DNA of 63,980 nucleotides, counting the filler, from Reclinomonas americana ATCC 50394 (Eukaryota): assembly GCA_048213135.1 (NCBI GenBank). It is 17 parts of 17 records of this genome, joined end to end, with 100 filler letters (N's around TTAATTAATTAA, not from the genome) between each part and the next. Parts side by side here need not be neighbours in the genome. Positions count along the whole stretch, not along the records: positions 40,379 to 48,987 come from AFZH01020330.1; 16 more parts are not named here. One strand, given 5' to 3'. Shown here piece by piece: positions 10,546-63,695 of the stretch; the first letter of the stretch is position 1; each line of letters begins with the position of its first letter. The position numbers and the translations under genes were made by a program. The notes beneath the pieces were generated by a model. The model was not told where the DNA came from, did no database searches, and was given only the letters and a program-made list of their open reading frames with translations.

Positions 10546-13189
<2,644 letters not shown>

Positions 13190-15414: not shown

Positions 15415-16250
15415 CTGCGACGACGGTTGGTCATTGGTGTGGCAAAATGTCGTGCGTGGTTGTTCGAGATGCTTCGTCAATTGCATGAACACAAAGCTGC
15501 GTGGCAGCAGGCGTGGCATTTGTGCGAGGAGTGGGAGAGGGATGGCAGTGGCGAGATGACTGTGCTGGATAAGACTGACGCCTTAAGGTGCTTGATGTGG
15601 TTTGCTTACCACTCATGCAGCTTGCCGCTGCTGGTACAGTGTCATGAGCGGCAGTGTGTGACACTGGGTGAGAGTCATCCAGACTCGCTGTGGACGCTGC
15701 TTTTGCAGGCCAGGCATCACTATAACCGGAAGCGGTTTGCTGAAGCTGAGACACTCTATCGACGGTGCTGGGAGATGCGACGACTGGTTCTTGGAGCTGA
15801 GCATCCGGTCACGTTGATATCCATGAATAATGTTGCCGCATGCATCCAAGATGACAGTCGTCTTGAGGAAAGAGTTCAGCTGATCCGAGAATGCTTGGAA
15901 GTAAGGCGAGCAACATTGGGAGTTCGGCATCTGAACACTCTTGCTTCGATGAACAATCTTGCTGTTTCTCTCGAGCAGCAAAACACACCAGAATCGCTGG
16001 CAGAAGCTGCTGATTTGTACCGTCAGTGCTTGGAGGGTCGACGTGAGCTGCTGGGCGACAGACATGTCCTCACGTTGCAGTCGATGTATAACTACGGCAT
16101 TATGCTCACGAAGCAGCAACGATGGGCCGAGGCAGAGGCACTGCTGGTGGAATGTGTGGATGGTCGGCGAGTGGTGCTTGGCGAAGAGAATCCGGAAACG
16201 GTGAATGCCATCAAGTGGTTGACAGAGTGCAGACGTCGTCGTGACCAAGC

Positions 16251-16266
<16 letters not shown>
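15415..16266 (+). CDS. 3' part of a TPR protein (kinesin-light-chain-like TPRs), paralog of the STAND gene at 40379-44100; 5' end lost in gap
   Basis: LGESHPDSL, LGAEHPVTLISMNNVA, LGVRHLNTLASMNNLA, LGDRHVLTLQSMYNYG, LGEENPETV. The first ~75 aa match the end of the 40331-41650 ORF. Confidence 0.9.
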
Positions 16267-16400
<134 letters not shown>

Positions 16401-27169: not shown

Positions 27170-27204
<35 letters not shown>

Positions 27205-27460
27205 TCACTCTCTCCCCTGCGTCTCTCCTTGTCTCCCTGAGTCTTGCCCTCTCTCCCTATCTTTCTGTCCCTTTCTCTTTCTCCCTCACTCTGTGTTATC
27301 TTTCTCTCTCCCTGCCCCCCCCCCCCCACCCCTTTCTCTCTCTCTCCCTCGTTGCTGGCTCACTCACTGGCATCGCAGCGCCTTGGAGCGGGAAGCGCGG
27401 TTTGTTTGTCGGCAGTCTTTGCCCTGTACTCCGCCTCTCTCACTGTCGCTCTGCGCATAG

Positions 27461-30400
27461 CTTGATCAACTTCAATCGCATCAACATGGCCTTCGAGGTG
27501 GCGGAGGAGGCCGTGCGTCTCCGCTGTCAACGCGCACTGGCACAGTTCAGCCGTGATCATCCGGACTTTGATGTGCGGGCGTGGGTGCAGAGTTTTACAC
27601 CTGCCGGCATGGATGTGGCGACAGTGAAGGCGTGGCGAGAGCGTCATGCCCCACTTCTACCCAATTGGGTTGCGCTGTTCAAGGAGAAGCAGTCGGTGGT
27701 GTTGGCCTGGCGTGCTGCCTTTGACGCCGACCCCTCATCTGACCCCCCGTGTGACGGTTTCGACACGACGGCACTCTCCTCCATCATGTCATATGGTGGC
27801 TTTGTTCTGGAAGACGGTCGCAAGCTGCTGTTGATTGACGATGCAGATGAACGGAAAGCTGTGCAAGAGCTGCACAGTTTCAGAAACAAGCTAAGACATG
27901 ATGAGATGCCGTTCATAGACGCTACTGTGGAGCAGTTTCTGGGTGACGATGGCGTCTTCCTAACTACCCTCTCCCGACTGCAGTTGACTGCTGACGAGCG
28001 TGACCGATTCTGTGCTCGTATCTGCGAGGCACGTCACGCTCGACTCACCATGGACACATTCGAGGAGCGACTGCATCGACTGGCCGTGCGTGAGACGGCC
28101 TATTATCACGAAGATGACAGTGTGCGCAAGGACATGCAGATGTATGTGCCACTGCTGTGCTCTCGTGATCGTGACGTCTCGACGAGTGACAAGATGACAG
28201 ATCTGTTGACGGAGGTGGATGCTTTCCTCTCCGACACCAACACCACTCAACGTGTGCTGGTGCTGTTTGGTAACAGTGGCGCAGGCAAGACCACCACCAT
28301 GTCGGTACTGGCTGAGCGAGCATGGCGGCAATGGCAAACGAGGGAGAGTCGACAAGTGCCTGTGCGTGTGCCTCTTGGTGCTTTGCGCAATGCCGATGAG
28401 CGACTGTTGGAGGAGGCACTGGAGCGACTGTCGCCCGAGTTGGGATTCAGTGAGTCGGATGTGCGGCGATTAAAGGAGGAGCCACTGCTGTTGCTGCTTG
28501 ACGGGTACGACGAGTTGTACCGTGGTGTGAATCTGTTTGTCAAGAACCAGCTGGATGTGTGTCGCGAGGTGAAGGTAGTTATCACCTGTCGGAGCGATTA
28601 CGCACTGCCGGCACTGGGTGGTGTGACGCAGTATCGACGGTACTTTGCACCGGTGGATGCACGAGGACAGTTGTGCATGCAACAGCTGATGGAGCGACAC
28701 ATTGCTCCGTTCAACAAGGAGCAGATTGAGGAGTACTTTGAGCGGCTGGTGCGAGTGGGTGGTGATGATTGTGATGACGGTGAAGCGCGATGGTCGACTG
28801 CCGAGGAGTATATTCGTGCACTGGAGGGTGTATATGGACTGGATGCGCTGGTGTCGAATCCATTCATGCTGACCGTGGTGGCTCACGTGCTGCCGCAATT
28901 GGTGGCAAGTGCAGTGCAGCGACCGACTCAGCGCGATGTGTTTGACCGATTTATTCGACAGTGGATTGAGAGGGAGCAGGAGAGGCAGACTCGTCTCGGT
29001 GCAGAGCGTGTGCCGAGTGAGGAGACATGTTTGGCATTCTGTGAGGGACTGGCACGGTTGATGCATGAGAGGAATGTGGTGCGTGTGTCTGTGACGGAGA
29101 GTTGGTCAGGTGATGGTGGTGGGGAGGAGGATGACTTTGGTGGTGCGCCTACTGCGGCAGTGCAAGCGCGACCGTTTGAAAAGTTTCTCGGTCACAAGAA
29201 CCAGCATGTGCGAGTGTGCTGTCCGATTGTGCGACGGTATGGAACGACGCAGTGGGGATTCGTGCATCTGTCGTTGCTGGAGCACTGTGTGGCGCGGCAT
29301 GTGTTTGCGTGGGAGACGTGGGATGAGGAGAGGAGATTGACGATAGAAGATGTGCAACAGCATGTGTTGGCAGTGCGACTGCTGAATGATCGACCATCGT
29401 TGGTGGAGCAGATGGCCGAGGTGGTGCGCCGATCACCCAAGGTACAAGACAGACTGTGGGAGGTGATTGAGTTGTCACGGGAGGTGGATGAGGAGCGATT
29501 GGTGACGGCAGCAGCGAATGCGGCAACGGTGTTGTGTGTGGCAGAAGTGTCGTTTAGTGGACGAGATCTGTCGGGTGTGCGAGTGAGGGGTGCGGATTTG
29601 AGGGATGCGGTGATGCACCAGACGGTGTGGAGGGGTGCGGATTTGAGAGGGATGAATGTGTGCATGGCGTATGCGAGGGAGGTGGATTTCAGGGGGGCAG
29701 ATGTGACGGGTGTGAAGTGGCCGAGGATGCCCATAGTGGGTCACACGGATGGGGTGTATGCAGTAGCAGTGACACCAGATGGTCAGCACGTTGTGAGCGG
29801 GAGTGCGGATGGGACTGTTCGGGTGTGGTCGGTGGTAAGCGGCGAGGAGGTGCGCCGACTGTCAGGCCACACGGCTCGGGTGTGGGCAGTAGCTGTGACA
29901 CCCGACGGCCAGCACATTTTGAGTGGCAGTGAGGACAAGACTGTACGGGTGTGGTCTGTGGCAAGTGGCGAGGAGGTGCGCCGACCGGAAGGCCACATGA
30001 GTTGGGTGTTCGCAGTGGCATCGACACCCGATGGGCAGCACATTGTGAGTGGCAGTTGGGACAAGACTGTACGAGTGTGGTCACTGGCAAGTGGCGAAGA
30101 GGTGCGACGACTGGAAGGCCACACGAATGGGGTGTATGCAGTGGCAGTGACACCCGATGGCCAGCACATCGTGAGTGGCAGTTATGACAAGACTGTACGG
30201 ATGTGGTCACTGGCAAGTGGCGAGGAGGTACGACGATTGGATGGCCACACGAGTTTGGTGTATGCAGTGGCAGTCACAACCGACGGCCAGTACATTGTGA
30301 GTGGCAGTTGGGACAAGACTGTACGGGTGTGGTCGCCGGCTAGTGGCGAGGAGGTGCGACGGTTCGAGGGACACACTGACGACGTGTTCTCTGTCGTTGT

Positions 30401-31532
30401 CGCTCCCGATGGCCAGCATATTGTGAGTGGGAGCAAGGACAGCACCGTGCGTGTGTGGTCATTAGCGAGTGGGGAAGAAGTACGTCGATTGGTGGGACAC
30501 GGCAAAGCAGTGCTGACCGTCGCTTGCACTCCCGATGGCCAATTCATTGTCAGTGGGAGTGCAGACAAGACTGTGCGTATATGGTCTGTGGTGAACGTTG
30601 AGGCCGTGCGACGGTCGGAGGGGCACACCCGTGCGGTGCAGTGTTGCACAGTAACTCCCGATGGTCGGTGCATTGTGAGTGGCAGTCGTGACAAGACAGT
30701 GCGATCATGGTCCGTGGCGACTGGTGAGGAAGAGCGACGATTGTCGGGGCGAAGTCATGCGCTCTCTGTTGCCGTCATACATCAGCTTGTTGTGTTTGGG
30801 ACTTTGGGAAAGACAATTCCAGTTTGTTCACTTGCGAGTGGAGATGTAGTGCGACGACTGGAAGGACACACTGGCTTGGTGCAAACTGTCGCTGTCACAT
30901 CCGACTATCAGTACATTGTGAGCGGCAGTGCAGACTCAACCGTGCGAATATGGTCTGTGGCGAATGGAGAAGAAACGCGGCGATGTGAAGGACATACTGA
31001 GGAAGTCCTTTCTGTCGCCATTTCTCCTGATGGTCAGCACGTCGTGAGCGGCGGGGCCGACAAGACAGTGCGAGTGTGGTCATTTGTGAGTGGTGAAGAA
31101 GTGCGCCGGTTGGAAGGGCATATCGATGCAGTGCATTCTGTTACCGTCACTCCAGATGGCCAGCACATTGTCAGTGGAAGTGCCGACAACACCGTGCGTT
31201 TGTGGTCATTGACAACTGGCGATTTGGTGCGGCGATTTAATGCCCATATTGGACAAGTGTTTTCAGTTGCCATCACGCCCGATGGAGAGCACATTCTGAG
31301 CGCAGGCTGGGACAAGGTCGTGCGAGTGTGGTCCGTGGCGAGTGGCTTGGAGATTCAACGCTTTGAGGGACACAACGATCCGCTGTTATGTGTCGCCGTA
31401 ACTGCCGATGGGCAGCACGTTATCAGTGGAGGTGCTGACAGGTCGCTGCGTGTGTGGTCACGGGCTGGAATGCTTCAGCGAATTATTGGCTCATTCCTCC
31501 CCGACTTCACTGACGTCAAAAAAGATTCGTGA
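27461..31532 (+). CDS. NLR-like STAND protein: HEPN-like domain + NACHT + pentapeptide repeats + 14 WD40 repeats (single ~4.07 kb exon; first ATG 27486, small upstream exons possible)
   Basis: FDTTALSSIM...RKAVQELHSFRNKLRH (27882-27899). Walker A GNSGAGKT (28269-28292), Walker B LLLLLDGYDEL, VVITCR, SNPFML, WGFVHLSLLE. Pentapeptides after AAANAATVL: SFSGRDLSGVRVRGADLRDA. WD40 array ~29730-31470. Confidence 0.93.
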
Positions 31533-31775
31533 ATGAAATCGTTGCTCTGAAAAGATCTCATCTGCACTGGCTGCTTTTGGAACACTTGACCCTTGTTCCA
31601 GTCTTCTCGAATCAACAACTCAGGCACCTTGACAATACGTCCAAGACCTAGTTCTAGATGAGCTCCCAAGACTGTTTGCGGCATCAACAAGCCCACAGCT
31701 ATCTAGTCATTCTACGATTTCTGTGCAACTTCTTTCGTCCGCAAAGAAACTTACAACAAACCATTCCACATTCAT

Positions 31776-34067: not shown

Positions 34068-34244
34068 TTCGCGCGTGGAGGAACGAGAAAAAACGACGCA
34101 CAGGACGCGGTGACGTCGAGGCGTTTGTTCGCTTCGAAATGAGAGGGAGTAGGTGTGTGGTGGGTGGTGGGTGGTGGGGAGTGTGTGGTGTACCATGGGA
34201 GATGTTGTGAGTGGTCGCGGAAGGAGAAAGGTGAGAAAGAGTGA

Positions 34245-36147: not shown

Positions 36148-38039
36148 ATGGCCAATCGTGCAGTGCTTCAGGTCTTTGAGGCCTATCAGAAGGCACGCGT
36201 CAACTTTGTGCAAACAGTCGCCGAGTTGGCCAATCGGTGAGCACACACACACTCTCTCACTCACACACTCTTTCTCTCTCCCTTTCTCTATCTCTGTGAG
36301 TGCGACCAGTGACAGTTCATATATATCGTCCGTTTACATGACTCAGGGCGTTTACTCACCTCTCCTCTTCACACACACACAGACCGGAGAACATTGAGGC
36401 TCTCCAGCATGCAGGCGCCATGGCCTTGCTCCGCCCACTCCTCCTCGTTGCGTCTCCCCTCACACACAAAACACACACAGACGCACACGTGAGAGGGAAA
36501 TGGCCATGACTGACTCTCTCTCACTCTCTCTCACACACACACACTCTCTCTCTCTCGCACTCTCTCTCACACACTCACTCTCTCTCTCTCTCTCTCTCTC
36601 ACTTTCTCTTGCAGGACAACGTGCCCTCGATTCAACAAAGTGCGGCCATGGCACTCGGTCGACTGGCCTCCTTCTCTGAGGAACTCGCCGAGGCCGTCGT
36701 CAGTGGAGAGATCCTTCCGCAATTGGTCTACTCGTTGTCCGAGCAGAACGTTTCGTCAGTTTCCTCCCGCGCGCACATACGCATGGTGTCCGCTTACATA
36801 GTGCGCATTTTACNNNNNNNNNNNNNNNNNNNNNNNNNNNNNNNNNNNNNNNNNNNNTTAATTAATTAANNNNNNNNNNNNNNNNNNNNNNNNNNNNNNN
36901 NNNNNNNNNNNNNCTCTGCTTCCCCCCTCTGCTTCCCCCCTCTGCTTCCCCCCTCTGCCTCCCCCCTCTGCCTCCCCCCTCTGCCTCCCCCCTCCCCTTC
37001 CCCTTCTACCCTTTCCCCCTCTTCCTTTTCCTCTTCTTCCCTTCCCCCTCCACCCCCTTTCCCCCTCTACCCCTTTCCCCCTTCTCACCTCCCTTTCCCC
37101 CCTCGATAGGTGTGCTCTTGCCTCGCCCAAATCGCCAAACACTCGTTCGAGCTGGCCGAGTTGGTGGTGGAGGGCGAGATCTTCCCGAAGATCTTCAACC
37201 TGCTGAAGGACCTGGACGAGGTGGTGCGCAAGAACGCCGCCACCTGCATCCGCGAGATCAGCAAGCACACGCCCGAATTGGCGCAACTGGTGGTTTCTTC
37301 GGGTGCTCTCGGCGTCATTGTCGACTATGTGGGCGAGACCAAGGGCAACAACCGCCTGCCGGGCATCATGACTCTCGGCTACATTGCTGCCTTCTCCGAC
37401 GCCCTCGCACAACACGTGATTGCCAATGGCGGCGTGGTGCCGCTGGCGCAGGCGCTGGACTCGGAGAAGGAGGATCATTTGCGAGCGGCGGCCGCCTGGT
37501 CACTGGGTCAGATTGGTCGCCACTCGTCCGAGCACTCGAAGGCCGTGACCGACGCCGAGGTGTTGCCACTGCTGCTCGATGCGTTCCTTGACCCGCAATC
37601 GTCGGACGACTTGAAGACCAAGGCCAAGCGCGCACTGAAGTCGGTGGTGCAAAAATGCCTCCACTTGCCGGCGCTGCAACCACTGCTCTCGCGCGCCCCC
37701 GTCAACATCCTCACACACGTCACTGGTCAGTACGCCAAGGTGCTGCCGGGCGATCGGACAGCAAGACGAGCGTTTGTGTCGGACGGTGGACTGGAGATGC
37801 TGCAGCGCATTTCCGAGCACGCACCCGAGGGCTCTGAGTTGCAGTTTCGTTGCTCTTCCTCACTGCTCTCCCACTCTCTCTCTCTTTGCTCGTGTGCTCA
37901 TCATGATTGTCCGTGTTACAGAAAGAACATTGACACGATCAACGCATGCTACCCCGACGAGATTGTCAAGTACTACTCACCCGGCTTCTCCAAGAACTTT
38001 GACAAGCTCATTGACAACTACGCACCTCCACTCGAGTAA
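36148..38039 (+). CDS. SPAG6: Axonemal central-apparatus armadillo protein PF16/SPAG6; middle exons missing in the gap
   Basis: MANRAVLQVFEAYQKARVNFVQTVAELA, LLRPLLLDNVPSIQQSAAMALGRLA, RLPGIMTLGYIAAFS, SSDDLKTKAKRALK, INACYPDEIVKYYSPG. Confidence 0.96.
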
Positions 38040-38187
38040 TAATTACCACGGCGACAACAACAGAAGCTTGTTGCTTGTTGTTGTGAATGATTGTTCTTTT
38101 TTCCGAGTAGTGAAGGCAATGAAAAGTGTACATTGTTTCTGTCAGTGTCCTCTCTCTTGTTGTTTGTTTGTTGAAGAAGATGTGGCG

Positions 38188-40278
38188 ATGCGCGACCGTC
38201 GAGTGCCACTCTCTCGCGTGTTGCAAGTGGCGACTGTGATGCTCCTTGCGATGCTCATGGTGTATGTGCTTGTTGTCACTCAGAAGAGAGTTTCGTGTGA
38301 TCTCCCAGTGTGTCTCTCTACGTGTGCATGTGCTGACGCTGATTGCTCTCTCTCCCTCTCTCTTCTTCTTCTTCTCTTCTTCTTGTTAGCGTGATAACGA
38401 GAGTGTGGCCGTGAGTGATGCGACTCTGCAGCGCATTGATGCAAGCGAGAATGATTGCGATGATGATCAAGTGGGATTTCCGTGGTCGCTCTTTGGGATG
38501 GACGAGTCGGCGACGCCTGTGCTGTTGAAGGCGCCGTTTGTTGCGGTGAGCTTGGTGGGGAGTTTGCTCTCTCTCTCTCTCTCTCTCTCTCTGTGCCTCT
38601 GCTTGTCACTCAGTTTCTGTCTTCCTCTTGATCACTCTCCCTCTCTCTGTCCTGCTTCTCTGCATTGCCATCGCTCTCGCAGCGTCTCTTGACTTCTGAG
38701 CCTTCCTTGCTCATATGTTTCCTTCCTTATCTTTTTTTCATTCTCTGCCCCTCGCTCTGTCTCTGTGTTTCACTGCTTCTCTGCATTGCCATTGCTCTCG
38801 CAGCGTCTCTCGTGTGCCTCTGCTTGTTACTTGCTTCTCCTTTCCTCCTCGCATACTCATTACTCTCCTCCCTCTCACCTTGCCTCTTCTCTCCTCCGTC
38901 CCCGCAGTCCATCAACACCAGCGACTGGCTGCTGGTGAGCGAGGACAGCGTGAGTCTGCAATCACCACGAACGGGTGCCTCGCGAGTGCTGGTGGAGAAC
39001 GATGCAGTGTTGTTCAGCGACGGTGGCATGTGTGGCGTGACGTTGCAGCGGTTGCCGCATTTTGACTTGGTGCGTGTGTGTGAGGCGAGATGGTGCACTT
39101 GTCTCTCAGATCACTGACACTTGGAAGTGCAGCCTGCCGACTTTTGTGTCGCGGCACCGATCCGGGCGCCTCGCAATCGACCGCACGAGTTGGGCTCACC
39201 TGTCATCACCAAGGACGACGGTCGAGTCATGTGTCACGACAAGAGTGGTCCTGTGCTCTCCTTTGTGGCCACGGTGCACAATGCGGTGCGTGATATGACT
39301 GTCTGGAGGAAGAGAGAGGAGCCTCTCCTCATACCATGTTCCTCCCGCTCGCAGCTGGTGACACCAGATGGCAGGGTGTTCACTCGACAGCACATGTGGG
39401 CGTCGCATCGGCTGGATGGGGTCGATCGTGATGCGTCGTACTCGTGGAAGACCACCGAATCGGTGGTGCTCGCCGACACAGTGGTATCATTGGTGCAGCA
39501 TCACGGCGACGCCTTCTATCACCTGCTGGGAGAGGTGCTGCCGCGCTTCATGCAAGTGTGGGACGTGGTGCGCGAGCACGAGTCGCACGCCCTGCTCCTC
39601 GTGCGTGACAATGCGTATGGATCGCACGTGGTGTATGACTTTTTCGCACTGCTGGGCATTGGCAGGGACAGGGTGCGATGTGGTGTGCATGGCCTGTTCC
39701 TTTCACGTCGGAGAGCTCATTCCTGTTGTCGCAGATCCTTCTGAATCCACTCGCAGTGTTGGCGCGACGAGTGCTTGTTGCGCAGGGTGTGCGGGGAGGC
39801 GCCGCGCAGCCAGCCTTGTTGCACGAAATGTCTCGCGTGTTCCACTCGCTGCATGGCGCGGCTTTGCGTGCGCAGGTTCAGGAATTTCGAAGCAGTTGCG
39901 CATGTTGAGCTTCCCCTATTCACCAGCTGGCAAGGTCTCACCATCGCGACAGAGCATGATGAAGAGTGGCGCCAATCGGCTCTTCACAATGGTCGTCCTC
40001 GACTGTACGTACTGGTCATCCAACGACCGGGCACTCGAACCCTGACCACGATGGAGAGGGCATGTACTTCTTCTCGCACTTATGCCTTCGTTGTCTCTGA
40101 CGATTCTTTGTGTGTGGCACAGGTCCTGTCGCTCATTGGCGAGGAGTTCCCGCACTGGCATGTCTCCTCGTTCGACACCGCCCAGTCGGCACTGCACAGC
40201 GTGGCACAGTTTGCTCGCAGCGACATCGTGCTGGGGCCGCACGGAGCAGCCTTTGCGCATCGCGCCTTTCTCGCACGA
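38188..40278 (+). CDS. Glycosyltransferase family 61 (DUF563)-like type II membrane protein, 3' truncated by gap
   Basis: N-terminal TM helix; DAFYHLLGEVLPRF; VLVIQRPGTRTL; QFARSDIVLGPHGAAFAH. Confidence 0.85.
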
Positions 40279-40378
40279 NNNNNNNNNNNNNNNNNNNNNN
40301 NNNNNNNNNNNNNNNNNNNNNNTTAATTAATTAANNNNNNNNNNNNNNNNNNNNNNNNNNNNNNNNNNNNNNNNNNNN

Positions 40379-43300
40379 TCGCTCATGACACTGCATCAAC
40401 AACGGCAAGTAGCCTGAATCATAAGCAAACCACATCAGGCACCGCAACGCATCAATCCTATTCAGCACAGTCATCTCGTCACTACCATCCCTCTCCCACT
40501 CCTCGCACAAATGCCATGCCTGCTGCCACGAAGATTTGTGTTCATCCCATTGACGAAGCAACTCATACAACCGGGCTCGACATTTAGCCACCACAATGGC
40601 GAACCGTCGTCGCACAAAACTCATGCCCACATCACCATCTCCACGTTGTCTGCATTCCGTCACAAGCCGCACAAGCGAAGAGGCCACTGCTTCATCAAAT
40701 CCAGCACATGGAAGTTTTTGATCTTCACACTGCTCTCGAATCCATTCCACCGCCCCACACTGCACCAGCAACCCGTTCACGCCAACTGCATCCCTCGCCC
40801 ACATCCCATCATCCTCACCCAATCGTCGCCACACTGCGTGGAGCACTCTGAGCAAGTCACGTGACACCAAGAGCACACCGTCGCTGTCATTCTGAGAATC
40901 AATGCCATTCAGCACACAACACACAAGTCGCACAATCAGTTGCTGCGCCCGTGACACTGCATCGCCACACCGTCCCACAATCCACCCAGCAATCTCGTCG
41001 TGCACTCGATACTCCACCACCACATTACTCTCTCGCACTTGCTCACCGCACAACACACGAGCAACACTGTCCATGCTGCCACTGACACCCACCGTCACCA
41101 GATTCGACAAGCACAGACCTTCCAGCACATCCTCCACTCCTTCGCCTTCACCACCGCCACCCGCCAACTCATCACGCTGCGCATGCACTCGTTGCTCCTC
41201 CTCCTCACTCATCTCGTCAAATTGCAGTCGCTCACCAACCACTTCGGGCGCCCGTCGTCGCCTCTCCTGTGCCCGCTCATGCAGTCGCAGTCGACGCACA
41301 CACTGACTCAACTCCACCAGTCGACTTGCCGCTTCCTCATCTTCATCACTACCACCCACAGCCATCGTCATATCGGGAATCACTCGCAACACACCCAGCG
41401 CCACACGTGCGAGTGCCACTGTCACTGGCAAGCCGAGTTCCTTGCAGGCCGTGATCAACACCAACAGACGACGAGCGGCTGCTGTCTGCGACATCACATT
41501 GCGTTCCAGCAGCTGCGACAGCGCATCGCCACCAATGCCACTCAGCACCTCTTCCAGTCGCGCGCCCACCAGCTGTGCTGCCGACTGTGACAACAACCAG
41601 CTGCATGACGAAGAAGAAGATAAGAGAGAGAAGAATGAGTCTTCATCCACGACACCACATCACTCACTTACTCACCCAACACAAGCACTCACTCGCAGTG
41701 CACTCTTCTCCTGCTGTCCACTCTCCAGTGCCTCAACAATTCGTCGTCGCACTTCTCCCGACACCTTGTCGAGCAGTCGCTCTTCCACAAGCTGCACAAT
41801 GTCCTCGTTCTCCACATTCTCCACCCGCACGCACTCCACCTCCGCTTCATGCATCATCAAATCACGAAGCTCATCCACCACTTGTCCATATCGACTTGTC
41901 ACCACCACAATCGGTGCCACCAGTCCACCTGCACACAGACACACACATGATGCACATCAAGTCAGGTCCCAACATCCAAGCAAGAATGAGAATTCTCTCC
42001 CTCATGACACACGCACCCTCCTCATCACACTGAACAACACTCCTCACTTGCTCCGCAGATCCCACATTGTCCAGCACCATCACTCCACTCGATGCGTGCA
42101 TCAACTGTCGCAGCAGACGACGTGCTGGCTCCACCTCGCCACTCGCCAGCAACGCATCCACCTGACTGTCCATCCTCCGTCCCTCAACTTCATCCTCCCG
42201 CATCTGTGCCGTCACGAAGGCACGCAGACACTCGCCCAGAGCACTTTGCGCCTGCAGCATGGCGAGAAGATTCAGCAGAGTCAGAATGACAACCAAAGAG
42301 GTAGTGTTGCAAGAAAGACACTGGCATGCACCGTAATATGCTCCCTCGCATCGCCAACATGCCCGCGCATCTCCACCGACACGGCCGATCCCTTCCATCG
42401 ACGAGTGGCCAGCAATTCGGTCACCAGCAGCTCGGCCAGGAACGACTTGCCAGTGCCACCATCGCCCGTCAGCACCACCATGATTGGATGATGTGCTGCG
42501 CAAGAATCATCCACCACAGACAACATGATGAGAAAATGAATATGCAACGGGAAGGGAGAATGAGAATGACAAACCAACCTTCCACTGCATCCACAATGCG
42601 CGTGGCGAGTGAGGCTGCCAGGATACGCCGACTAGGGAAGCGGAATGTGGTTACTGGATTGACAGTGCGCGCGATGAGTGGTGTCGTAGCTGGGCGACTG
42701 CTGTCAGGCGCTGTGTGGCAGAGTGAGCACAGCAATTCACATTCAAATGCAGATCAACCATGGAACACACCTGCAGTTGATGGAGAAGAAGGCGAGATGA
42801 TGCTTGGTGAGTCAAGCCATTGGTGCTCGTGCTCCACCTCATCTCGAATCTGATTCATCACACGCAAGTGAGAAACAGAGAGCCATCTTCAAGTGACCGC
42901 CTCCTCATGCATTCCCACTCAACTTGCTCCATGTGTACTAGCAGCAACGACTGGTCAGCTTGACTCAGTGCACCTGCATTCACACACAACCAAGAGAGCA
43001 TCAGATTCCACATTGAATCAAATCATCTACTCACGCCAGCCATCTCTCCATCACTCACCATCACGAGCCTCATTCAGCTGCACCACCAAGTCCTCCTCCA
43101 CATGCCTGTCAATCTGCAGTCGCCGCACAAGCTGACGCAGCTCGCCTTCTTCTCCTCCTCCGTCACCAAGCAGAGATACAAAGAGTGCACGAGCTCGGAC
43201 AGGACTCGCCTGCTCAAACACCTCCGTCATTCGCTCAAGCGCATCACGCTGTGTAACAACAGGAGAGTAAGAGACACAATTACACAGAGGGAGATCACAC

Positions 43301-44100
43301 TCCTCTTCCTTCCATCTCATTCTCACACACTCACCACATCACCAGCTGGAATCAGACGATCTGGCTCGTCTCTCGGGTGCTCTCGATGACCCGCCAGCAG
43401 CAAGATCGAGCAGCACAGCATGGCATCAAACGAACTGCAGTCGTGCAGCTGGCCTCGCTGACGCCACTCACGCACCATCTGCCGCTCCTTCTCGTTCAAC
43501 TGGACACACATGTCCACTCCGTCCGGCATGGTTCTACATATGGGGGAAAGGCACAAGGATGCAGGTGAGTCGAGGGACGTGTGTGACAAGAAAGAGAGGG
43601 CATTGATCGGGGATAGAATGCGGAGTGTTGGTGAGACAATGGAGAGTGTGAGAATGGGGAGAAAGAGACGACCAGTGCGTCACCGTCTTCCACTTGCTTG
43701 TGGCAATCATATCTCTTCTCTCATTCCCATCTCCATTTGCATCTTGCCATCGTGTGCTCCCATATCCACCCCACACAAACACTCACCGCACATCACGCTC
43801 ACTCGGCGCCTTGCACCACTCGGCGACGTGATTCACACCGGGATATGAATCGAGAAATGCCGGCAGCACTTGCTCGAGTTTGGATTGCAGAGCGCGGGTG
43901 CATGAACGAGACAGGGCTTTGACAAGGCGCATCATGCACTCCTCATCACCCGCATCGTGAGGATGACTGCACGAGAGGAGAGGAGAAGAGAGTGACAGGG
44001 AACGAATACACACAATGAATGATGACGATGATTGCATCTGACAACAACACAATGAGATAAAGACACGCAACTCACGCGGCACTCCACTCCCACTCGCCAT
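40379..44100 (-). CDS. Multi-exon STAND (NB-ARC-like) NTPase with a degenerate HEPN-like N-terminal domain; C-terminal TPRs inferred from the paralog; 3' truncated
   Basis: Phase-consistent exons 44072-44100, 43787-43966, ~43335-43533, ~43059-43248 and further exons downstream. Walker A VLTGDGGTGKS (42443-42466), VEMRG, Walker B VMVLDNVGSAEQV, IVVVTSR. Confidence 0.82.
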
Positions 44101-44289
44101 GATAATGCGTCACAGCAAGAATAACAACAACAGCACACAGACAGATGCACAGGGGAATGACACGCTTTCTCTCTCTCTCTGGCACAATAAGAAGCGGAGA
44201 AATGCAACACACTCACTCTCCTTCTCTCCTTTCTCTCTCGCGCACACAGTGGGGAACAACACTGACACAAACAGAACAGAGAACACACA

Positions 44290-44600
44290 AGCTCACTTCT
44301 GCTCAACAGCAGCAACAAACAGAACTTGTTGTCAACCAAACGAATGAACCACTGAAGTCCAGCCTATCTTCCCTTCTCCGCTCTCATGCGCCGCGCCACT
44401 CACGACAGCGACGACGATGATGATGACGAAGAACCCGAGTCACTGCTGACACGCAACCGACGCATTCGCATGCCCACACCTCTTCCACCAATGCTTCCTC
44501 CGCCTCCACCCTCCGTGCTGCTTCCTCCACCGCCAGCGCTGCCACCAATGGGTTTGTCTGTGTGCACACAGAGAGAGAGAGAGAGTGAGAGAGAGTGAGA
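44290..44600 (+). pseudogene. Duplicated upstream region and first exon of the SNF2 helicase gene
   Basis: MRRATHDSDDDDDDEEPESLLTRNRRIRMPTP matches 47150 onward; the upstream ~100 bp also match ~47050-47150. Confidence 0.88.
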
Positions 44601-44794
44601 GAGAGAGAGAGAGAGAAAGGAAGAAGCGGATGTCGCTCTCTTCCTCTGTTTCTCTTCACCCTCTCTCACTCTCTCACTCTCCCCGTCCCTCACATACACT
44701 GTCTCGTCAGTGGCCTTGTCAGCACCGCCTGCCTCGGCATCTTCTCATTGACCATCCTCTCGATGAACCGCGCGATCTTTCAGCGTGCGATCGA

Positions 44795-45720
44795 CCATGG
44801 CCGAGTTGATGGTGAGCTTCCCCAAGATCATCAACCTGCTGATGGACCTGGACGAGATGCCTGCATCCGCGAGATCAGCAAGCACACGCCCGAACTCGCG
44901 GAACTTGTGGTGTCTTCGGGTGCTCTCGGGAGTCATTGTCGAGCGAGACCAAGAGCAACAACCGCCTGCCGGGCATCATACTCTCGGCTGCATTGCCGCC
45001 TTCTCTGACGCCCTCGCACAACACGTGATTGCCACTCGGAGAAGGAGGATCACCTGCGTGCCTGGCCACTGGGCCAGATTGGTCGCCACTCGTCGGAGCA
45101 CTCCAAGGCCGTGACCGACGCCGAGGTGTTGCCGCTGCTGCTCGATGCGTTCCTCGACCCGCAATCGTCGGACGACCTGAAGATCAAGGCCAAGCGCGCA
45201 CTCAAGTCGGTGGTGCAAATATGCCTCAACTTGCCTGCGCTGCAACCACTGCTCTCGCGCGCGCCGCCGTCAGCATCCTCACACACGTCACTGGCCAGTA
45301 CGCCAAGGTGCTGCCGGGCGATCGCGACAGCAAGACAAGCGTTTGTGTCGGATGGTGGTCTGGAGACGCTGCAGCGCATTTCCGAGCACGCACCCGAGGG
45401 CTCTGAGTTGCAGTTTCGTTCCTTCCCAGTCTCTTTGCCCTCCCTCTCTCACTTTGCTCGTGTGCTCATCATTATCAGTCGCCCGTGTTACAGAAAGAAC
45501 ATTGACACGATCAACGCATGCTACCCCGACGAGATTGTCAAGTACCACTCACCCGGCTTCTCCAAGAACTTTGACAAGCTCATTGACAACTACGCACCGC
45601 CACTCGAGTAATAATTACCTCGGCGACAACAACGATAACAACAGTAGCTTGTTGGTTGTTGTTGTGAATGATTGTTTCCTTTTTTCCGAGTAGTGAAGGC
45701 AACGAAGAGTGCACATTGTC
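44795..45720 (+). pseudogene. Degenerate partial copy of the PF16/SPAG6 3' half, including its last intron and 3' flank
   Basis: Colinear with ~37150-38140 but with multiple deletions and frameshifts. The intron is retained, so this is a DNA-level duplication. Confidence 0.92.
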
Positions 45721-45811
45721 TCTTGAGTATTTGCTTGCAAATGCTGGAGACTGCGATTGCCGGCCACCTCTTTCACTCGGTGATCAAACACAGAAATAGC
45801 GCGTTCTTCAC

Positions 45812-46747
45812 TCAGTGGCCCGAAGAAGCTGGCGCAGAGGCAAAGTAGCCACCACGCTCGATGTCGTCCAGCAGGTTGGCCTCCTTGGGGGCCCACCCAA
45901 GCAGCTCTCGCGTCTTTTGGGACGAGGTGGGGTTGTCGATTCCCGCAAAGCCGGCAAACCATCCAAAGTGCTCCTTGGCCTCCTCGCCGGCGGCCTTGCT
46001 CACCGCGGGCACATTCAGCTGGCGGCCAATCAGTTCGGCAATGTCGCGCAGCGGGACGCCTTCCTCCGCCACTGCATGATACACAGCTCCGGGAATGGCA
46101 CGCTCCAGCGCCAAAAGATACACTCGCGCCGCATCCAGCCGATGCACGGCCGGCCACCGATTCTGGCCATCACCAATGTAGGCCGACTGGCCCTTCTGCC
46201 GGGCCAGCTGAATCAGCATGGGTACAAAGGCCACGTCACCACCATCGCCCTGGTGCACCGTTGGCGGCAGCCGCACAATGGACACGTTGGCGCCGCCGAA
46301 TTCGGCCGCGCACCGCCGAGCCGTTTGCTCCGACACGCGAGGGCCCGTGGCCGGCTCCGGCGCCGCCACGTCCTCCGTCGAGGTCTCACCCGGTGCAAGT
46401 CGGCTGAGCACCGACGGTGTGGCCGAGGTGACAATCAACGGTTGCTGCGGCTTGAGTGCACCAGCCAGAGCCTCAATGGCGCGGCGGTCAACGTCGCAGC
46501 TTTCGGCGTACTTTTCAAAGTTGTGGATGAAACCCGTGTGGATGACGGCATCGGCGGCGGTCACTCCGCTGCGGAGCGATTCAAGGTCCTCCAGGGAGCC
46601 CAGGTGCACGCTGGCCCCGGCCGAACGCAAGGTGGCGGCGGCGGACTCAGAGCGCGCCAGGCCGAGGACGGAGTGCCCGGCAGACAGAAGCTCGCGGAGG
46701 ACTGCACTGCCAACAAAGCCAGTGGCGCCGGTGAGGAAGACCTTCAT
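45812..46747 (-). CDS. NAD(P)-dependent epimerase/dehydratase (atypical SDR), intronless
   Basis: MKVFLTGATGFVGSAVLRELLSAGHSVLGLARS, VIHTGFIHNF, IVRLPPTVH, YIGDGQNRWPAVHRLDAARVYLLALE, TRELLGWAP. Confidence 0.93.
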   Translation of the reverse strand: MKVFLTGATGFVGSAVLRELLSAGHSVLGLARSESAAATLRSAGASVHLGSLEDLESLRSGVTAADAVIHTGFIHNFEKYAESCDVDRRAIEALAGALKPQQPLIVTSATPSVLSRLAPGETSTEDVAAPEPATGPRVSEQTARRCAAEFGGANVSIVRLPPTVHQGDGGDVAFVPMLIQLARQKGQSAYIGDGQNRWPAVHRLDAARVYLLALERAIPGAVYHAVAEEGVPLRDIAELIGRQLNVPAVSKAAGEEAKEHFGWFAGFAGIDNPTSSQKTRELLGWAPKEANLLDDIERGGYFASAPASSGH

Positions 46748-47149
46748 CTTGATAAGCAAGCTCTCGCTCAAGACAACGAATCGAAGAACGAATGTGGTCG
46801 TCGTGTCATGCATGTCCGACATTTGTCCGCAGCGCTGGAGACGTCGGAGTGGAGTCCTGACCCCCCGGATCGGAGTGGTTGCTCCTGCAGCAAGCAAGGA
46901 TTTCGGGCTGCATTGCACAGACGACGGAGAAGGTCGACTCGGAGAGGGTCGGAAGTTTGCTTCTTTGTAAGAGGTCCAGCACTCTCCCTTCGTCGCTTTT
47001 TCTCTCTCTCTTGCACACAATCACGCAGTGGAGAATGACACTGATCCGAGAACACACAACCTCAATTCTGCTCACAGCAGCAGCAACAGATCTTGTTGCC
47101 AACCAAACGAATGAACCAATGAAGTCCTATCAAGCCTCTCTCCCTTCTC

Positions 47150-54517
<7,368 letters not shown>

Positions 54518-57231: not shown

Positions 57232-63695
<6,464 letters not shown>

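What the first reader, a model, noticed from the sequence alone, without database searches (positions are those of the whole stretch)
43059..44100. The same HEPN-like domain, apparently catalytically dead, on a different STAND chassis
Seen: four spliced exons give RLVKALSRSCTRALQSKLEQVLPAFLDSYPGVNHVAEW...EKERQMVREWRQ..CSSFDAMLCCSILLLAG...LIPAGDVRDALERMTEVFEQ...LLGDGG..LVRRLQI...LNEARD. This aligns colinearly with the NACHT N-terminus RINMAF..ALAQFSRDHPDFDVRAW...KEKQSVVLAWRA..CDGFDTTALSSIMSYGG...LIDDADERKAVQELHSFRNKLRH...FLGDDG..LSRLQL...ICEARH. The RNxxxH motif is replaced. Inference: one effector domain has been shuffled between NACHT-WD40 and NB-ARC-TPR receptors, and the dead copy could be a decoy, inhibitor or heterotypic adaptor in a sensor/executor pair. 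The ORF track misses this because introns split it.
Basis: partly seen in the sequence, partly recalled or inferred. Interest (0 to 1): 0.85.

Follow-up and report, generated by a model that had tools for sequence, protein, structure and literature searches.

The report
Likely HEPN domain, plus motif-less relative
Two immune-receptor-like genes of an unidentified flagellated eukaryote start with weakly similar helical domains: one looks like an RNA-cutting HEPN domain with its catalytic motif, the other lacks the motif, an arrangement already familiar from animals and bacteria.

Summary
The quoted peptides are real. Three canonical GT-AG coding exons (43935-43059, minus strand) open a ten-exon, 891-codon STAND NTPase gene. 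A single-exon NACHT-pentapeptide-WD40 gene lies at 27486-31532. Their ~185-aa N-terminal domains align colinearly, but only marginally above chance: phmmer E 0.0026, with 1-3 of 1000 shuffles as good, while BLASTP (E 0.22) and hhalign (P 0.14) are not significant.

The NACHT copy is probably a divergent Swt1-type HEPN domain. HEPN_Swt1 is its only Pfam hit, below threshold (E 0.09-0.16). It matches a bacterial HEPN_Swt1 profile at P about 0.002, keeps every invariant residue of that family, and carries RNKLRH.

The second copy has FEQASPV at that position and no RNxxxH in any frame. It shows no direct HEPN signal. Neither fold could be predicted with confidence.

The second NTPase is only NB-ARC-like, and its TPRs are inferred from a paralogue on another contig. 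The two genes lie on separate contigs, so nothing supports a sensor/executor pair. HEPN-STAND fusions and inactive HEPN domains are already described, so interest is modest.

The parts
27486..31532 (+). Single-exon gene, 1348 aa: N-terminal helical domain, NACHT NTPase, pentapeptide repeats, and about 13 WD40 repeats of 42 aa
   Evidence: One open frame. NACHT PF05729 scores 41.5 bits against a 26.7 cut-off, and Pentapeptide PF00805 scores 27.1 bits against 20.2. WD40 PF00400 has E 1.6e-146.
27486..28055 (+). N-terminal domain of the NACHT gene (aa 1-190), the putative HEPN effector
   Evidence: No Pfam family at E<=1 for the whole domain. 0 hits in 1.84 billion representative proteins. The protein-atlas look-alikes include HEPN_Swt1 and HEPN_DZIP3 clusters.
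27639..28010 (+). Core (aa 52-175) that aligns to bacterial HEPN_Swt1 domains
   Evidence: hhalign P 0.0017-0.0021 over 85 columns, and 1 of 100 shuffles as good. It shares all 11 invariant columns of alignment A1. Pfam HEPN_Swt1 is the only hit, E 0.16.
27882..27899 (+). RNKLRH (aa 133-138), the R-N-x3-H motif
   Evidence: It aligns to the RNKWAH motif of the family.
27750..27788 (+). CDGFDTTALSSIM, which aligns with the LD..ALL.IMW block of HEPN_Swt1 and with CSSFDAMLCCSIL of the second gene
28269..28292 (+). Walker A motif GNSGAGKT of the NACHT module
43787..43935 (-). Second gene, coding exon 1 (MMRLVK...ERDV)
   Evidence: ATG at 43935 and a GTGAGT donor after 43787.
43335..43533 (-). Second gene, exon 2 (TMPDG...PAGDV). 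It holds EKERQMVREWRQ and CSSFDAMLCCSIL.
   Evidence: TAG acceptor and GTGAGT donor.
43059..43248 (-). Second gene, exon 3 (RDALERM...LNEARD). It holds the position where the motif is missing.
   Evidence: CAG acceptor and GTGAGT donor.
43198..43218 (-). FEQASPV (aa 127-133), the residues aligned to FRNKLRH of the NACHT copy. R, N and H are all replaced.
   Evidence: No RNxxxH in any frame.
43102..43125 (-). RRLQIDRH (aa 158-165), an Rx5-6H string about 30 residues downstream of the aligned motif position. Probably chance.
   Evidence: The domain holds 3 Rx4-6H starts against 1.58 expected, and 82% of 5000 shuffles have at least one. MAFFT placed this helix opposite the family's catalytic helix in an alternative, statistically unsupported register.
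40379..42973 (-). Second gene, exons 4-10: linker, P-loop NTPase and helical C-terminal part, cut by the contig end. Exons: 42973-42924, 42849-42771, 42710-42579, 42495-42332, 42251-42017, 41928-41676, 41600-40379.
   Evidence: All introns are GT-AG, and the full ten-exon model (exons 1-10) gives 891 open codons.
42443..42466 (-). Walker A motif GDGGTGKS. Walker B VMVLDNV lies at 42083-42063, VVVTSR at 41908-41891 and ELGLPV at 41440-41423.
   Evidence: A local NB-ARC profile aligns the P-loop and the Walker B to TSR stretch.
44076..44100 (-). Upstream ATG with a GTGAGT donor. It is in frame with exon 1 only if unspliced, so it is likely a 5' UTR feature or a short upstream ORF.
15415..16263 (+). 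3' part of a paralogue of the second gene on another contig. Its first 79 aa are 76% identical to the last 79 aa before 40379, and it continues into TPR_10/TPR_12 repeats.
   Evidence: tblastn. Pfam TPR_10 E 1.4e-33 and TPR_12 E 3.1e-31. 84.7% nt identity over 235 nt. dN/dS 0.24.

Best explanation
Two STAND-type receptor genes of one unidentified flagellated eukaryote each begin with a helical domain of about 185 aa.

The first gene is NACHT-pentapeptide-WD40. Its N-domain is most likely a fast-evolving HEPN RNase domain of the Swt1-like clade with an intact R-N-x3-H motif. By analogy with other STAND and HEPN proteins (inferred, not shown), ligand binding at the WD40 end would drive NTP-dependent oligomerisation. 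That would bring the N-terminal HEPN domains together into the dimeric, composite RNase site, and RNA cleavage would then shut down the infected or non-self cell.

The second gene is an intron-rich, NB-ARC-like NTPase whose paralogue ends in TPRs. It carries a distant, motif-less relative of the same domain. This copy cannot cleave RNA by the canonical mechanism, so it would act as an RNA-binding or protein-binding module.

Shown: the exon structure, the NACHT, pentapeptide and WD40 domains, the presence and absence of the motif, and a marginally significant colinear similarity. Inferred: the HEPN fold, homology of the second copy, and every functional step.
For: Gene models:
- Ten exons with nine GT-AG introns give 891 open codons.
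- The N-domain exons have coding-like codon-position composition.
- dN/dS is 0.24 against the paralogue over 79 codons.
- NACHT and Pentapeptide score above the Pfam cut-offs, and WD40 is clear.

HEPN reading of the NACHT copy:
- HEPN_Swt1 is the only Pfam family hit for 4 of 4 sub-fragments scanned at E<=10 (E 0.087-0.16, 12.7-13.6 bits).
- A profile built from 25 bacterial HEPN_Swt1 domains scores it 7.2 bits, E 2.5e-4 at Z=1, and 1 of 2000 shuffles is as good.
- hhalign gives P 0.0017-0.0021 over 85 colinear columns, and 1 of 100 shuffles is as good.
- In the MAFFT alignment A1 it shares all 11 columns that are invariant across the 25 family members, including D of [FL]D, ER, EL, the motif R and H, and F. 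It also has the near-invariant N.
- The protein-atlas look-alikes include clusters carrying HEPN_Swt1 (20% of members) and HEPN_DZIP3 (11% and 38%).

Homology of the two copies:
- phmmer gives E 0.0026, and 3 of 1000 global and 1 of 1000 local shuffles are as good.
- Both domains have the same position and length, with the P-loop at aa 262 and aa 277.
- The second domain scored 3.5 bits against the NACHT N-domain, but at most 0.1 bits against any of the 19 other STAND proteins fetched.

Motif loss: FEQASPV lies inside exon 3, and no RNxxxH occurs in any frame.

Precedent (passages read): HEPN fused to NACHT in animals, with expansions in Nematostella, oyster and Capsaspora; bacterial N-terminal HEPN + STAND + TPR proteins; and inactive HEPN domains proposed as RNA binders (PMC3710099, PMC8260672).
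Against: - Every HEPN signal is below accepted thresholds. The Pfam score of 13 bits compares with a cut-off of 27.5. The hhalign probability is only 13%. The atlas recognition value of 2217 is below the 2300 that most real families reach.
- The targeted profile tests were chosen after the Pfam and atlas hints, so they are not independent of them.
- BLASTP (E 0.22) and single-sequence hhalign (P 0.14) do not support the pairwise similarity. The best Smith-Waterman z-values came from scoring settings chosen after the fact.
- The second domain shows no direct similarity to the HEPN_Swt1 profile: 174 of 2000 shuffles score as well, and hhalign gives P 0.22-0.33. Adding it to the NACHT copy lowers the hhalign score, and P rises from 0.0021 to 0.095.
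- MAFFT put the second domain in a different register against the family than phmmer puts it against the NACHT copy.
- No homologue of either domain was found, so no deep alignment exists.
- Neither AlphaFold2 model was confident (pLDDT 42.5 and 55.9), and Foldseek found nothing.
- Splicing is inferred from sequence only.
Confidence: 0.5

Rival explanations
1. The NACHT N-domain is a HEPN domain, but the N-domain of the second gene is an unrelated helical effector or adaptor domain. The colinear similarity would then be chance plus the shared composition of Arg/Glu/Leu-rich helices.
For: BLASTP gives E 0.22, hhalign P 0.14, and Smith-Waterman z is only 2.6 with standard settings. The second domain has no direct HEPN signal. 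The register of its alignment is inconsistent between methods. The atlas gave no usable hit for exon 2.
Against: phmmer gives E 0.0026, and only 1 of 1000 shuffles that keep local composition reaches the score. Several short blocks line up in the same order: EK.Q.V..WR, C..FD....SI, LGD.G, RLQ and EAR. Both domains have the same length and sit in the same position ahead of a STAND NTPase.
Confidence: 0.22
2. The two N-domains are homologous but are not HEPN domains. They would be a lineage-specific helical domain of unknown role, and the RNKLRH string and the weak Swt1 match would be chance.
For: All HEPN evidence is sub-threshold. The match to the Pfam model covers only about 25 residues around the motif. 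There were 0 hits among 1.84 billion representatives. No confident fold was obtained.
Against: HEPN_Swt1 is the single Pfam hit out of 24,736 models in each of 4 fragment scans. hhalign extends the match to 85 columns, including the [FL]D..AL..IM block 30 residues upstream of the motif. All 11 invariant family columns are kept. The atlas features point to HEPN clusters independently of HMMER.
Confidence: 0.15
3. The second N-domain is a HEPN domain that is not dead. Its catalytic helix would be the RRLQIDRH / RHVEED helix (aa 158-167) in a different register, with an altered motif (H after R, D in place of H).
For: MAFFT aligned GDVRDALERMTEVFEQ to the family's LD..LL.MWEQW block, and ELRQLVRRL to ERSLVSEL, which places R162 near the family's motif R. 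According to Table 1 of PMC3710099 (passage read), some HEPN-T members have D in place of the conserved H.
Against: Neither hmmsearch nor hhalign gives this register any significant score. It contradicts the pairwise alignment to the NACHT copy, which is the only similarity with statistical support. Rx4-6H strings are expected by chance in this Arg-rich sequence, at 1.58 per shuffle.
Confidence: 0.07
4. The second gene is a decaying pseudogene or a mis-modelled locus, so the 'dead domain' has no function at all.
For: No transcript evidence could be obtained. No homologue was found for its C-terminal 411 aa. The gene is truncated by the contig end.
Against: All 891 codons stay open across nine canonical introns. 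Codon-position composition is coding-like. dN/dS is 0.24 against its paralogue over 79 codons.
Confidence: 0.04

Closest known systems
DZIP3/hRUL138-like and CXorf38 (Swt1-clade) HEPN domains fused to NACHT NTPases in animals, with lineage-specific expansions in Nematostella, oyster and Capsaspora (PMC3710099 Table 1 and text, passages read; PMC8260672 and PMC10236652, passages read)
   Same: A predicted HEPN RNase sits at the N-terminus of a NACHT NTPase with C-terminal repeats (LRR or WD40). These families expand and diversify within a lineage. In corals, NACHT pairs mostly with LRR/WD40 and NB-ARC with TPR.
   Different: The window domain matches neither Pfam HEPN_DZIP3 nor any other model at threshold. 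Its nearest detectable relatives are bacterial Swt1-type domains. The organism is not identified. The NACHT module is closest (28-31% identity) to NACHT-pentapeptide-WD40 proteins of Mortierellomycotina fungi, which lack this N-domain.
Bacterial N-terminal HEPN + STAND NTPase (+TPR) proteins, and HEPN effectors on bacterial NACHT proteins (PMC3710099, passages read; bioRxiv 10.1101/2022.07.19.500537, passages read)
   Same: The order of parts is the same: HEPN effector, STAND NTPase, then repeats. Both papers class these HEPN domains as predicted RNases; the preprint lists them as effectors that may mediate cell death or block phage replication.
   Different: The window genes are eukaryotic and one has nine introns. 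The repeats are WD40 or eukaryote-type TPR_10/12. No function was tested here.
Bacterial HEPN_Swt1 (PF18731) domains at the N-terminus of ~1100-aa proteins (80 of 401 genomes of one bacterial phylum sample). This is probably the Ava_2192 / DUF499 AAA+ group of PMC3710099; that link is my reading and was not tested.
   Same: They share the W, [FL]D..ALL.IM, ER..V.EL and RN...H blocks in the same order, with 22-34% identity over 124 aa.
   Different: They are fused to a different ATPase. The similarity is below family thresholds.
Catalytically inactive HEPN domains, such as eukaryotic Swt1, many MtlR proteins and nematode expansions (PMC3710099, passages read)
   Same: They have lost the Rx4-6H motif while the domain is kept. 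They are proposed to act as RNA-binding or sensing modules.
   Different: For the window's second domain, membership of the HEPN fold is itself unproven.
RNase L and Ire1 KEN domains
   Same: These are HEPN RNases that are switched on when a sensor part drives dimerisation or oligomerisation. This is the working model proposed here.
   Different: Their sensor and NTP-binding parts differ (ankyrin plus pseudokinase, or kinase). There is no STAND NTPase.
Fungal NLR repertoires in which the same N-terminal domains occur on NACHT and NB-ARC chassis with WD40, TPR or ANK repeats (Dyrka et al. 2014, recalled, not read)
   Same: Combinatorial re-use of an N-terminal domain on NACHT-WD40 and NB-ARC-TPR receptors. 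WD40 repeats of near-identical 42-aa units.
   Different: HEPN is not among the fungal N-terminal domains that I recall, and I did not check this.

Membership tests
HEPN superfamily (Swt1-like clade, Pfam PF18731), NACHT-gene N-domain | Rx4-6H motif, usually with a polar residue (N/H/D) after R, in the last core helix | tested here: met
   RNKLRH at aa 133-138 (27882-27899). It aligns to the family's RNKWAH.
HEPN superfamily (Swt1-like clade, Pfam PF18731), NACHT-gene N-domain | Score above the curated Pfam cut-off (27.5 bits) | tested here: not met
   No hit for the whole domain at E<=1. Four sub-fragments score 12.7-13.6 bits, E 0.087-0.16, and HEPN_Swt1 is the only family listed for each.
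HEPN superfamily (Swt1-like clade, Pfam PF18731), NACHT-gene N-domain | Profile-level similarity over the domain core, beyond the motif | tested here: inconclusive
   hhalign against 25 bacterial members gives P 0.0017-0.0021 over 85 columns, probability 13%, and 1 of 100 shuffles is as good. hmmsearch gives 7.2 bits, and 1 of 2000 shuffles is as good. All 11 invariant columns are shared. The family was chosen after the Pfam and atlas hints.
HEPN superfamily (Swt1-like clade, Pfam PF18731), NACHT-gene N-domain | All-alpha up-and-down helical bundle fold | tested here: inconclusive
   The AlphaFold2 single-sequence model has pLDDT 42.5. With the Swt1 alignment A1 the model is all-helical but has pLDDT 55.9 and pTM 0.30, and it is circular. 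Foldseek against the PDB gave 0 matches.
HEPN superfamily (Swt1-like clade, Pfam PF18731), NACHT-gene N-domain | Metal-independent RNase activity of a dimer | not testable with these tools
   Needs expression and an RNase assay.
HEPN superfamily, N-domain of the second gene | Rx4-6H motif at the catalytic helix | tested here: not met
   FEQASPV lies at the position aligned to FRNKLRH. No RNxxxH in any frame, and the other Rx4-6H strings occur at chance frequency.
HEPN superfamily, N-domain of the second gene | Detectable similarity to a HEPN family profile | tested here: not met
   Exons 2 and 3 give 0 families in Pfam at E<=10. The local HEPN_Swt1 HMM scores 0.4-0.5 bits, and 174 of 2000 shuffles are as good. 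hhalign gives P 0.22-0.33. The whole spliced domain could be tested only with local profiles, not with Pfam.
HEPN superfamily, N-domain of the second gene | Homology to a domain that is itself a HEPN (transitive link through the NACHT copy) | tested here: inconclusive
   phmmer E 0.0026, with 1-3 of 1000 shuffles as good. BLASTP E 0.22 and hhalign P 0.14.
NACHT NTPase (PF05729), first gene | Pfam score above the cut-off, with Walker A and Walker B | tested here: met
   41.5 bits against 26.7, covering 1-163 of 167 profile positions. hhalign against 14 fetched NACHT proteins gives E 4.2e-41.
NB-ARC (PF00931), second gene | Match to the NB-ARC profile (P-loop, Walker B hhhhDD, TTR/TSR, GLPL) | tested here: inconclusive
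   The Pfam scans of the exon pieces listed no NB-ARC; the P-loop piece listed 19-24 families including AAA_16, AAA_25, nSTAND3 and NACHT, all below cut-off. The whole spliced protein could not be given to the Pfam tool. A local HMM from 30 bacterial NB-ARC domains scores it 12.8 bits, against 8.3 for the NACHT control. hhalign gives 88% probability over 128 columns against NB-ARC, and 84% over 42 columns against NACHT, but the NACHT control also reaches 89.5% against NB-ARC. The motifs VMVLDNV, VVVTSR and ELGLPV were read by eye.
TPR-ended STAND receptor, second gene | C-terminal TPR repeats on the same polypeptide | tested here: inconclusive
   The 411 C-terminal aa on this contig contain no TPR, and the contig ends at 40379. 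A paralogue on contig 15415-20535 (76% aa identity over the 79-aa overlap) runs straight into TPR_10/TPR_12.
Paired sensor/helper NLR genes | Genomic pairing (adjacent, often head-to-head), or shown interaction | tested here: inconclusive
   The two genes lie on different contigs joined artificially. The head-to-head neighbour of the second gene is a SPAG6/PF16-like gene. No interaction test was run.

The most novel reading that the evidence does not exclude
The motif-less domain on the TPR-type STAND protein is a true HEPN paralogue that heterodimerises with the active HEPN of the NACHT-WD40 receptor. HEPN RNase sites are built across a dimer, so such a partner would gate or poison the nuclease. 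This would be a paired-receptor logic (sensor or inhibitor plus executor) built on HEPN-HEPN contacts, in a eukaryote outside the animals.
Probability: 0.05. Interest if true: 0.7.

Novelty: new member of a known kind. Interest (0 to 1): 0.3.

Why it matters
If the reading holds, this flagellated eukaryote uses a HEPN RNase as the killing end of a NACHT-WD40 receptor. Its NACHT module is nearest to those of early-diverging fungi. HEPN RNases in that role have so far been described mainly in animals, in Capsaspora and in bacteria. It would add a data point for how widely RNA-cleaving effectors are wired to STAND switches, and an example of an effector losing its catalytic motif after moving to another receptor chassis.

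The practical value is limited. The organism is unknown, the domain family has no detectable relatives, and all functional steps are inferred.

Tried and rejected
- Whole genome: none is held for this window.
- Sequencing runs: none was listed for 42200-44150, and no RNA holder was listed. Splicing therefore could not be checked with reads, and read laying was not used.
- Earlier findings of the scan: three look-ups returned nothing.
- Homologue searches that found nothing:
  - NACHT N-domain by word index, 0 of 848 candidates.
  - NACHT N-domain by exhaustive phmmer over 1.84 billion representatives, 0 hits.
  - The second gene's C-terminal 411 aa against longer proteins, 0 of 8000 scored candidates.
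- Relatives of the NACHT module: 19 proteins were found, but none shares either N-domain. The best phmmer E is 0.37 for the NACHT N-domain and 0.57 for the second one.
- PDB sequence search with the NACHT N-domain: only two chance-level rows, E 1 and 1.3.
- PADLOC and NCBIfam scans of the N-domain pieces: 0 families.
- Protein atlas with exon 2 of the second gene: no usable hit.
- AlphaFold2: the single-sequence model had pLDDT 42.5. The model built with the Swt1 alignment had pLDDT 55.9, and its Foldseek search of the PDB gave 0 matches. None of this is usable as evidence for or against the fold.
- A combined HEPN_Swt1 + NACHT-copy profile did not pull in the second domain: 84 of 2000 shuffles scored as well.
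- Of the 30 HEPN_Swt1 loci fetched, 5 were dropped before the profile was built, because my extraction picked a wrong-frame ORF lacking R[NH].WAH.
- The first exon model had two wrong junctions. These were corrected.
- Complex prediction was not run. The spliced second domain cannot be handed to it whole, and neither domain has relatives for an alignment.
- The organism was not identified. SPAG6/PF16 similarity only shows that it is flagellated.
- Literature: two keyword searches listed no paper on HEPN-bearing NLRs outside animals and bacteria. They were narrow, so this does not show that none is in print.

Full report
WHAT THE WINDOW IS. The 63,980 bases are not one molecule. They are 17 short contigs (1.2-8.6 kb) joined by spacers of 44 N, TTAATTAATTAA and 44 N. 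The NACHT gene lies on contig 27123-32460, and the second gene lies on contig 40379-48987. Their order and distance in the genome are therefore unknown. The sequence is eukaryotic: it has short GT-AG introns, and it encodes a SPAG6/PF16 central-pair protein (386 bits to SPAG6 and 363 bits to Chlamydomonas PF16), so the organism is flagellated. No whole genome is held for the window.

THE EXONS. They are 43935-43787, 43533-43335 and 43248-43059. The donors are GTGAGT and the acceptors are TAG, CAG and CAG. The count is three exons, not four. The ATG at 44100 is in frame only if the GTGAGT(44075)...CAG(43967) interval of 109 nt is not removed. If that interval is spliced, the ATG opens a short upstream ORF.

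Extending the model downstream gives ten exons, nine GT-AG introns of 60-253 nt and 891 open codons. The model runs into the contig end at 40379. My first two models had wrong junctions, which were corrected.

Three observations argue against a chance ORF or a pseudogene. GC at codon positions 1, 2 and 3 in the N-domain exons (0.74/0.41/0.60) matches the rest of the gene and the NACHT gene, whereas the introns are 48% GC and T-rich. A second copy of the gene's 3' part on contig 15415-20535 is 84.7% identical in DNA over 235 nt. Over those 79 codons dN/dS is 0.24. No transcript data could be obtained.

THE NACHT GENE. Coordinates 27486-31532 form one open frame of 1348 aa. Pfam places NACHT (41.5 bits, cut-off 26.7) and pentapeptide repeats (27.1 bits, cut-off 20.2) in aa 200-750, followed by WD40 repeats (E 1.6e-146). 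The WD40 repeats have an exact 42-aa period, and one unit is degenerate. The NACHT module's nearest relatives in 5.8 billion clusters are NACHT-pentapeptide-WD40 proteins, mostly of Mortierellomycotina fungi, at 27-31% identity. In total 19 proteins scored E<=0.001. None of them has the window's N-domain.

IS THE ALIGNMENT MORE THAN CHANCE? The two N-domains align colinearly, with 26% identity over 131 columns. The shared blocks are EK.Q.V..WR, C..FD....SI, LI..D, LGD.G, RLQ and EAR. Both domains end about 80-90 residues before the P-loop, which starts at aa 262 in one gene and aa 277 in the other.

The statistics are marginal:
- phmmer with all filters off gives E 0.0026 for a one-sequence search.
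- 3 of 1000 global shuffles and 1 of 1000 shuffles within 20-aa blocks reach the observed score.
- Smith-Waterman with BLOSUM62 11/1 gives z 2.6, with 44 of 2000 shuffles as good. Three softer settings, chosen afterwards, give z 5.0-5.9.
- BLASTP gives E 0.22.
- Single-sequence hhalign gives P 0.14.
- As real-protein decoys, the second domain scored at most 0.1 bits against the 19 fetched STAND proteins, against 3.5 bits for the NACHT N-domain.

I read this as suggestive of homology, at about three in four once the shared position and length are counted. It is not proof.

IS THE NACHT COPY A HEPN DOMAIN? Standard searches leave it an orphan. There is no Pfam family at E<=1, nothing in PADLOC or NCBIfam, 0 hits by exhaustive phmmer in 1.84 billion representatives, and nothing in the PDB sequences.

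Several weak signals nevertheless agree:
(i) In 4 of 4 sub-fragments scanned at E<=10, the only Pfam family listed is HEPN_Swt1 (PF18731). It scores 12.7-13.6 bits, E 0.087-0.16, over the roughly 25 residues around the motif.
(ii) The language-model atlas lists look-alike clusters of which 20% carry HEPN_Swt1 and 11% or 38% carry HEPN_DZIP3, at scores of 0.90-0.92. Its recognition value of 2217 is below the 2300 that most real families reach.
(iii) I fetched HEPN_Swt1 domains from a sample of one bacterial phylum. There, 80 of 401 genomes had a match; one of them, G347, is unpublished and was not used. 30 loci were taken, and 25 were kept after I dropped 5 that my script had extracted in a wrong frame. 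A profile built from these 25 scores the NACHT N-domain 7.2 bits, E 2.5e-4 at Z=1, and 1 of 2000 shuffles is as good. hhalign extends the match to 85 colinear columns (aa 71-164), with P 0.0017-0.0021 and 1 of 100 shuffles as good, although its probability is only 13%.
(iv) In the MAFFT alignment A1, the window sequence is 22-34% identical to the 25 members. It shares all 11 columns that are invariant among them, including the D of [FL]D, ER, EL, the motif R and H, and the following F, as well as the near-invariant N.

The targeted tests in (iii) and (iv) were chosen because of (i) and (ii), so they are not independent of them.

Structure prediction did not help. The single-sequence AlphaFold2 model has pLDDT 42.5. 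The model built on alignment A1 is all-helical, with the motif at the end of helix 68-87, but it has pLDDT 55.9 and pTM 0.30, and it is circular because the alignment is the Swt1 family itself. Foldseek found no PDB match.

My estimate is about 75% that this is a divergent HEPN domain with a canonical R-N-x3-H motif.

THE SECOND COPY. At the aligned position it reads FEQASPV (43218-43198), well inside exon 3, so no alternative splice can restore the motif there. No RNxxxH exists in any of the three frames of 44110-42900 on that strand. The domain does contain three Rx4-6H strings (RQRGQLH, and RRLQIDRH counted from both of its leading R's). In this Arg-rich sequence, shuffles give 1.58 on average, and 82% of shuffles have at least one.

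Direct tests against HEPN fail:
- Pfam lists nothing for exons 2 and 3.
- The local Swt1 profile scores 0.4-0.5 bits, and 174 of 2000 shuffles are as good.
- hhalign gives P 0.22-0.33.
- Adding this sequence to the NACHT copy weakens the hhalign match, and P rises from 0.0021 to 0.095.
- A combined Swt1 + NACHT-copy profile does no better, with 84 of 2000 shuffles as good.
- The atlas gives no usable hit for exon 2.

When the second domain was added to A1, MAFFT chose a different register. That register puts the ELRQLVRRLQIDRH helix opposite the family's catalytic helix. It has no statistical support, but it shows that the word 'dead' depends on an alignment that is itself only marginal. The spliced domain could not be given to the Pfam, atlas or structure tools, which accept only unaltered window translations. 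That leaves the fold of this copy entirely open.

THE CHASSIS. The second NTPase has GDGGTGKS, VMVLDNV, VVVTSR and ELGLPV in the order expected of AP-ATPase/NB-ARC proteins.

Pfam scans of the separate exons list no NB-ARC; the P-loop piece gives only sub-threshold hits, such as AAA_16, AAA_25 and nSTAND3. A local profile of 30 bacterial NB-ARC domains was built from a sample in which 74 of 251 genomes had a match. It scores the spliced protein 12.8 bits through the P-loop and the Walker B to TSR stretch, against 8.3 bits (P-loop only) for the NACHT control. hhalign gives 88% probability over 128 columns against NB-ARC, and 84% over only 42 columns against a NACHT alignment. However, the NACHT control also reaches 89.5% against NB-ARC. 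'STAND NTPase, NB-ARC-like' is therefore as far as the evidence goes.

The 411 C-terminal residues on this contig have no TPR and no detectable homologue. The paralogue on contig 15415-20535 is 76% identical over the 79-aa overlap, and it continues directly into TPR_10 (E 1.4e-33) and TPR_12 (E 3.1e-31) repeats. A TPR end is therefore likely, but it is not seen on this gene.

HOW IT PROBABLY WORKS (inferred). In STAND receptors, repeat-mediated recognition triggers NTP-dependent oligomerisation, which brings the N-terminal effector domains together. HEPN RNases need dimerisation to form their site, as in RNase L and Ire1 (recalled, not read). The NACHT-WD40 protein would then be a self-contained sensor-executor that cleaves RNA on activation. 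The second protein, if its domain is a HEPN relative, has lost the canonical site. By analogy with the inactive HEPN domains discussed in PMC3710099 (passages read), it would bind RNA or a partner rather than cut. Nothing here tests an interaction between the two proteins, and nothing shows that the genes are paired in the genome.

COMPARISON WITH WHAT IS KNOWN. The following were read as passages:
- HEPN domains fused to NACHT (DZIP3/hRUL138 and CXorf38 families), with expansions in Nematostella, oyster and Capsaspora (PMC3710099).
- 17-83 DZIP3-HEPN-NACHT proteins per anthozoan genome (PMC8260672).
- Coral NLRs with NACHT-LRR/WD40 and NB-ARC-TPR chassis and many N-terminal DZIP3-like HEPN domains (PMC10236652).
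- Bacterial N-terminal HEPN + STAND (+TPR) proteins (PMC3710099).
- HEPN among the effectors of bacterial NACHT proteins (bioRxiv 10.1101/2022.07.19.500537).
- HEPN effectors attached to inactive STAND modules (PMC8195603).

Re-use of one N-terminal domain on NACHT and NB-ARC chassis is also the rule in fungal NLR repertoires (recalled, not read). The window's genes are thus a new, sequence-orphan member of a known kind, not a new kind. Two narrow keyword searches listed no paper on HEPN-bearing NLRs outside animals and bacteria, but this does not establish that none exists.

VERDICT. The HEPN reading of the NACHT copy is probable. The claim that the second domain is the same domain is plausible but rests on p of about 0.001-0.003 from one method. 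The decoy or pair idea is untested speculation. Interest is modest (0.3).

Noticed in passing
whole window; spacers at e.g. 40279-40378 and 27023-27122: The window is 17 contigs (1.2-8.6 kb) joined by N44-TTAATTAATTAA-N44 spacers. Apparent gene neighbourhoods across spacers are therefore artificial.
   Followed up: yes
36914-40278 vs 44788-45723; 15415-15650 vs 40379-40614: Two other contigs are diverged copies of the flanks of the second gene's contig. One is 83.9% identical in DNA over 1020 nt (a SPAG6/PF16-like gene). The other is 84.7% identical over 235 nt (the 3' part of the STAND gene), with dN/dS 0.24. This points to a duplicated region, a homeologue or a very divergent haplotype.
   Followed up: partly
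14127-15305 (+): Another WD40-repeat gene fragment lies on its own contig. Its repeats are 66-71% identical in DNA to those of the NACHT gene. No NACHT part was detected on that contig by tblastn at E<=1e-3.
   Followed up: partly
30744-30830 (+): One WD40 unit of the NACHT gene is degenerate (SGRSHALSVAVIHQLVVFGTLGKTIPVCS) within an otherwise exact 42-aa repeat array. The frame stays open.
   Followed up: no
44076-44100 (-) and 43967-44075: An upstream ATG is followed by a consensus GTGAGT...CAG interval of 109 nt, which would shift the frame if spliced. This may be a 5' UTR intron with a short upstream ORF ahead of the STAND gene.
   Followed up: partly
37110-38036 (+) and 44767-45611 (+): SPAG6/PF16 (flagellar central-pair armadillo protein) genes score 386 bits to SPAG6 and 363 bits to Chlamydomonas PF16. 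They show that the organism builds a motile flagellum.
   Followed up: partly
32562-34349 (-), 45815-47020 (-), 10758-12161 (-): Other ORFs with Pfam hits are a nucleotide-diphospho-sugar transferase (PF03407), an NAD-dependent epimerase/dehydratase, and a weak Piezo_TM1-24 match (E 1e-4, below cut-off).
   Followed up: no
e.g. 47400-49000, 57650-58900, 61300-62350: Long CT/GA-type microsatellite and low-complexity tracts lie at many contig ends. They give long spurious open frames rich in S/L or E/R/K.
   Followed up: no
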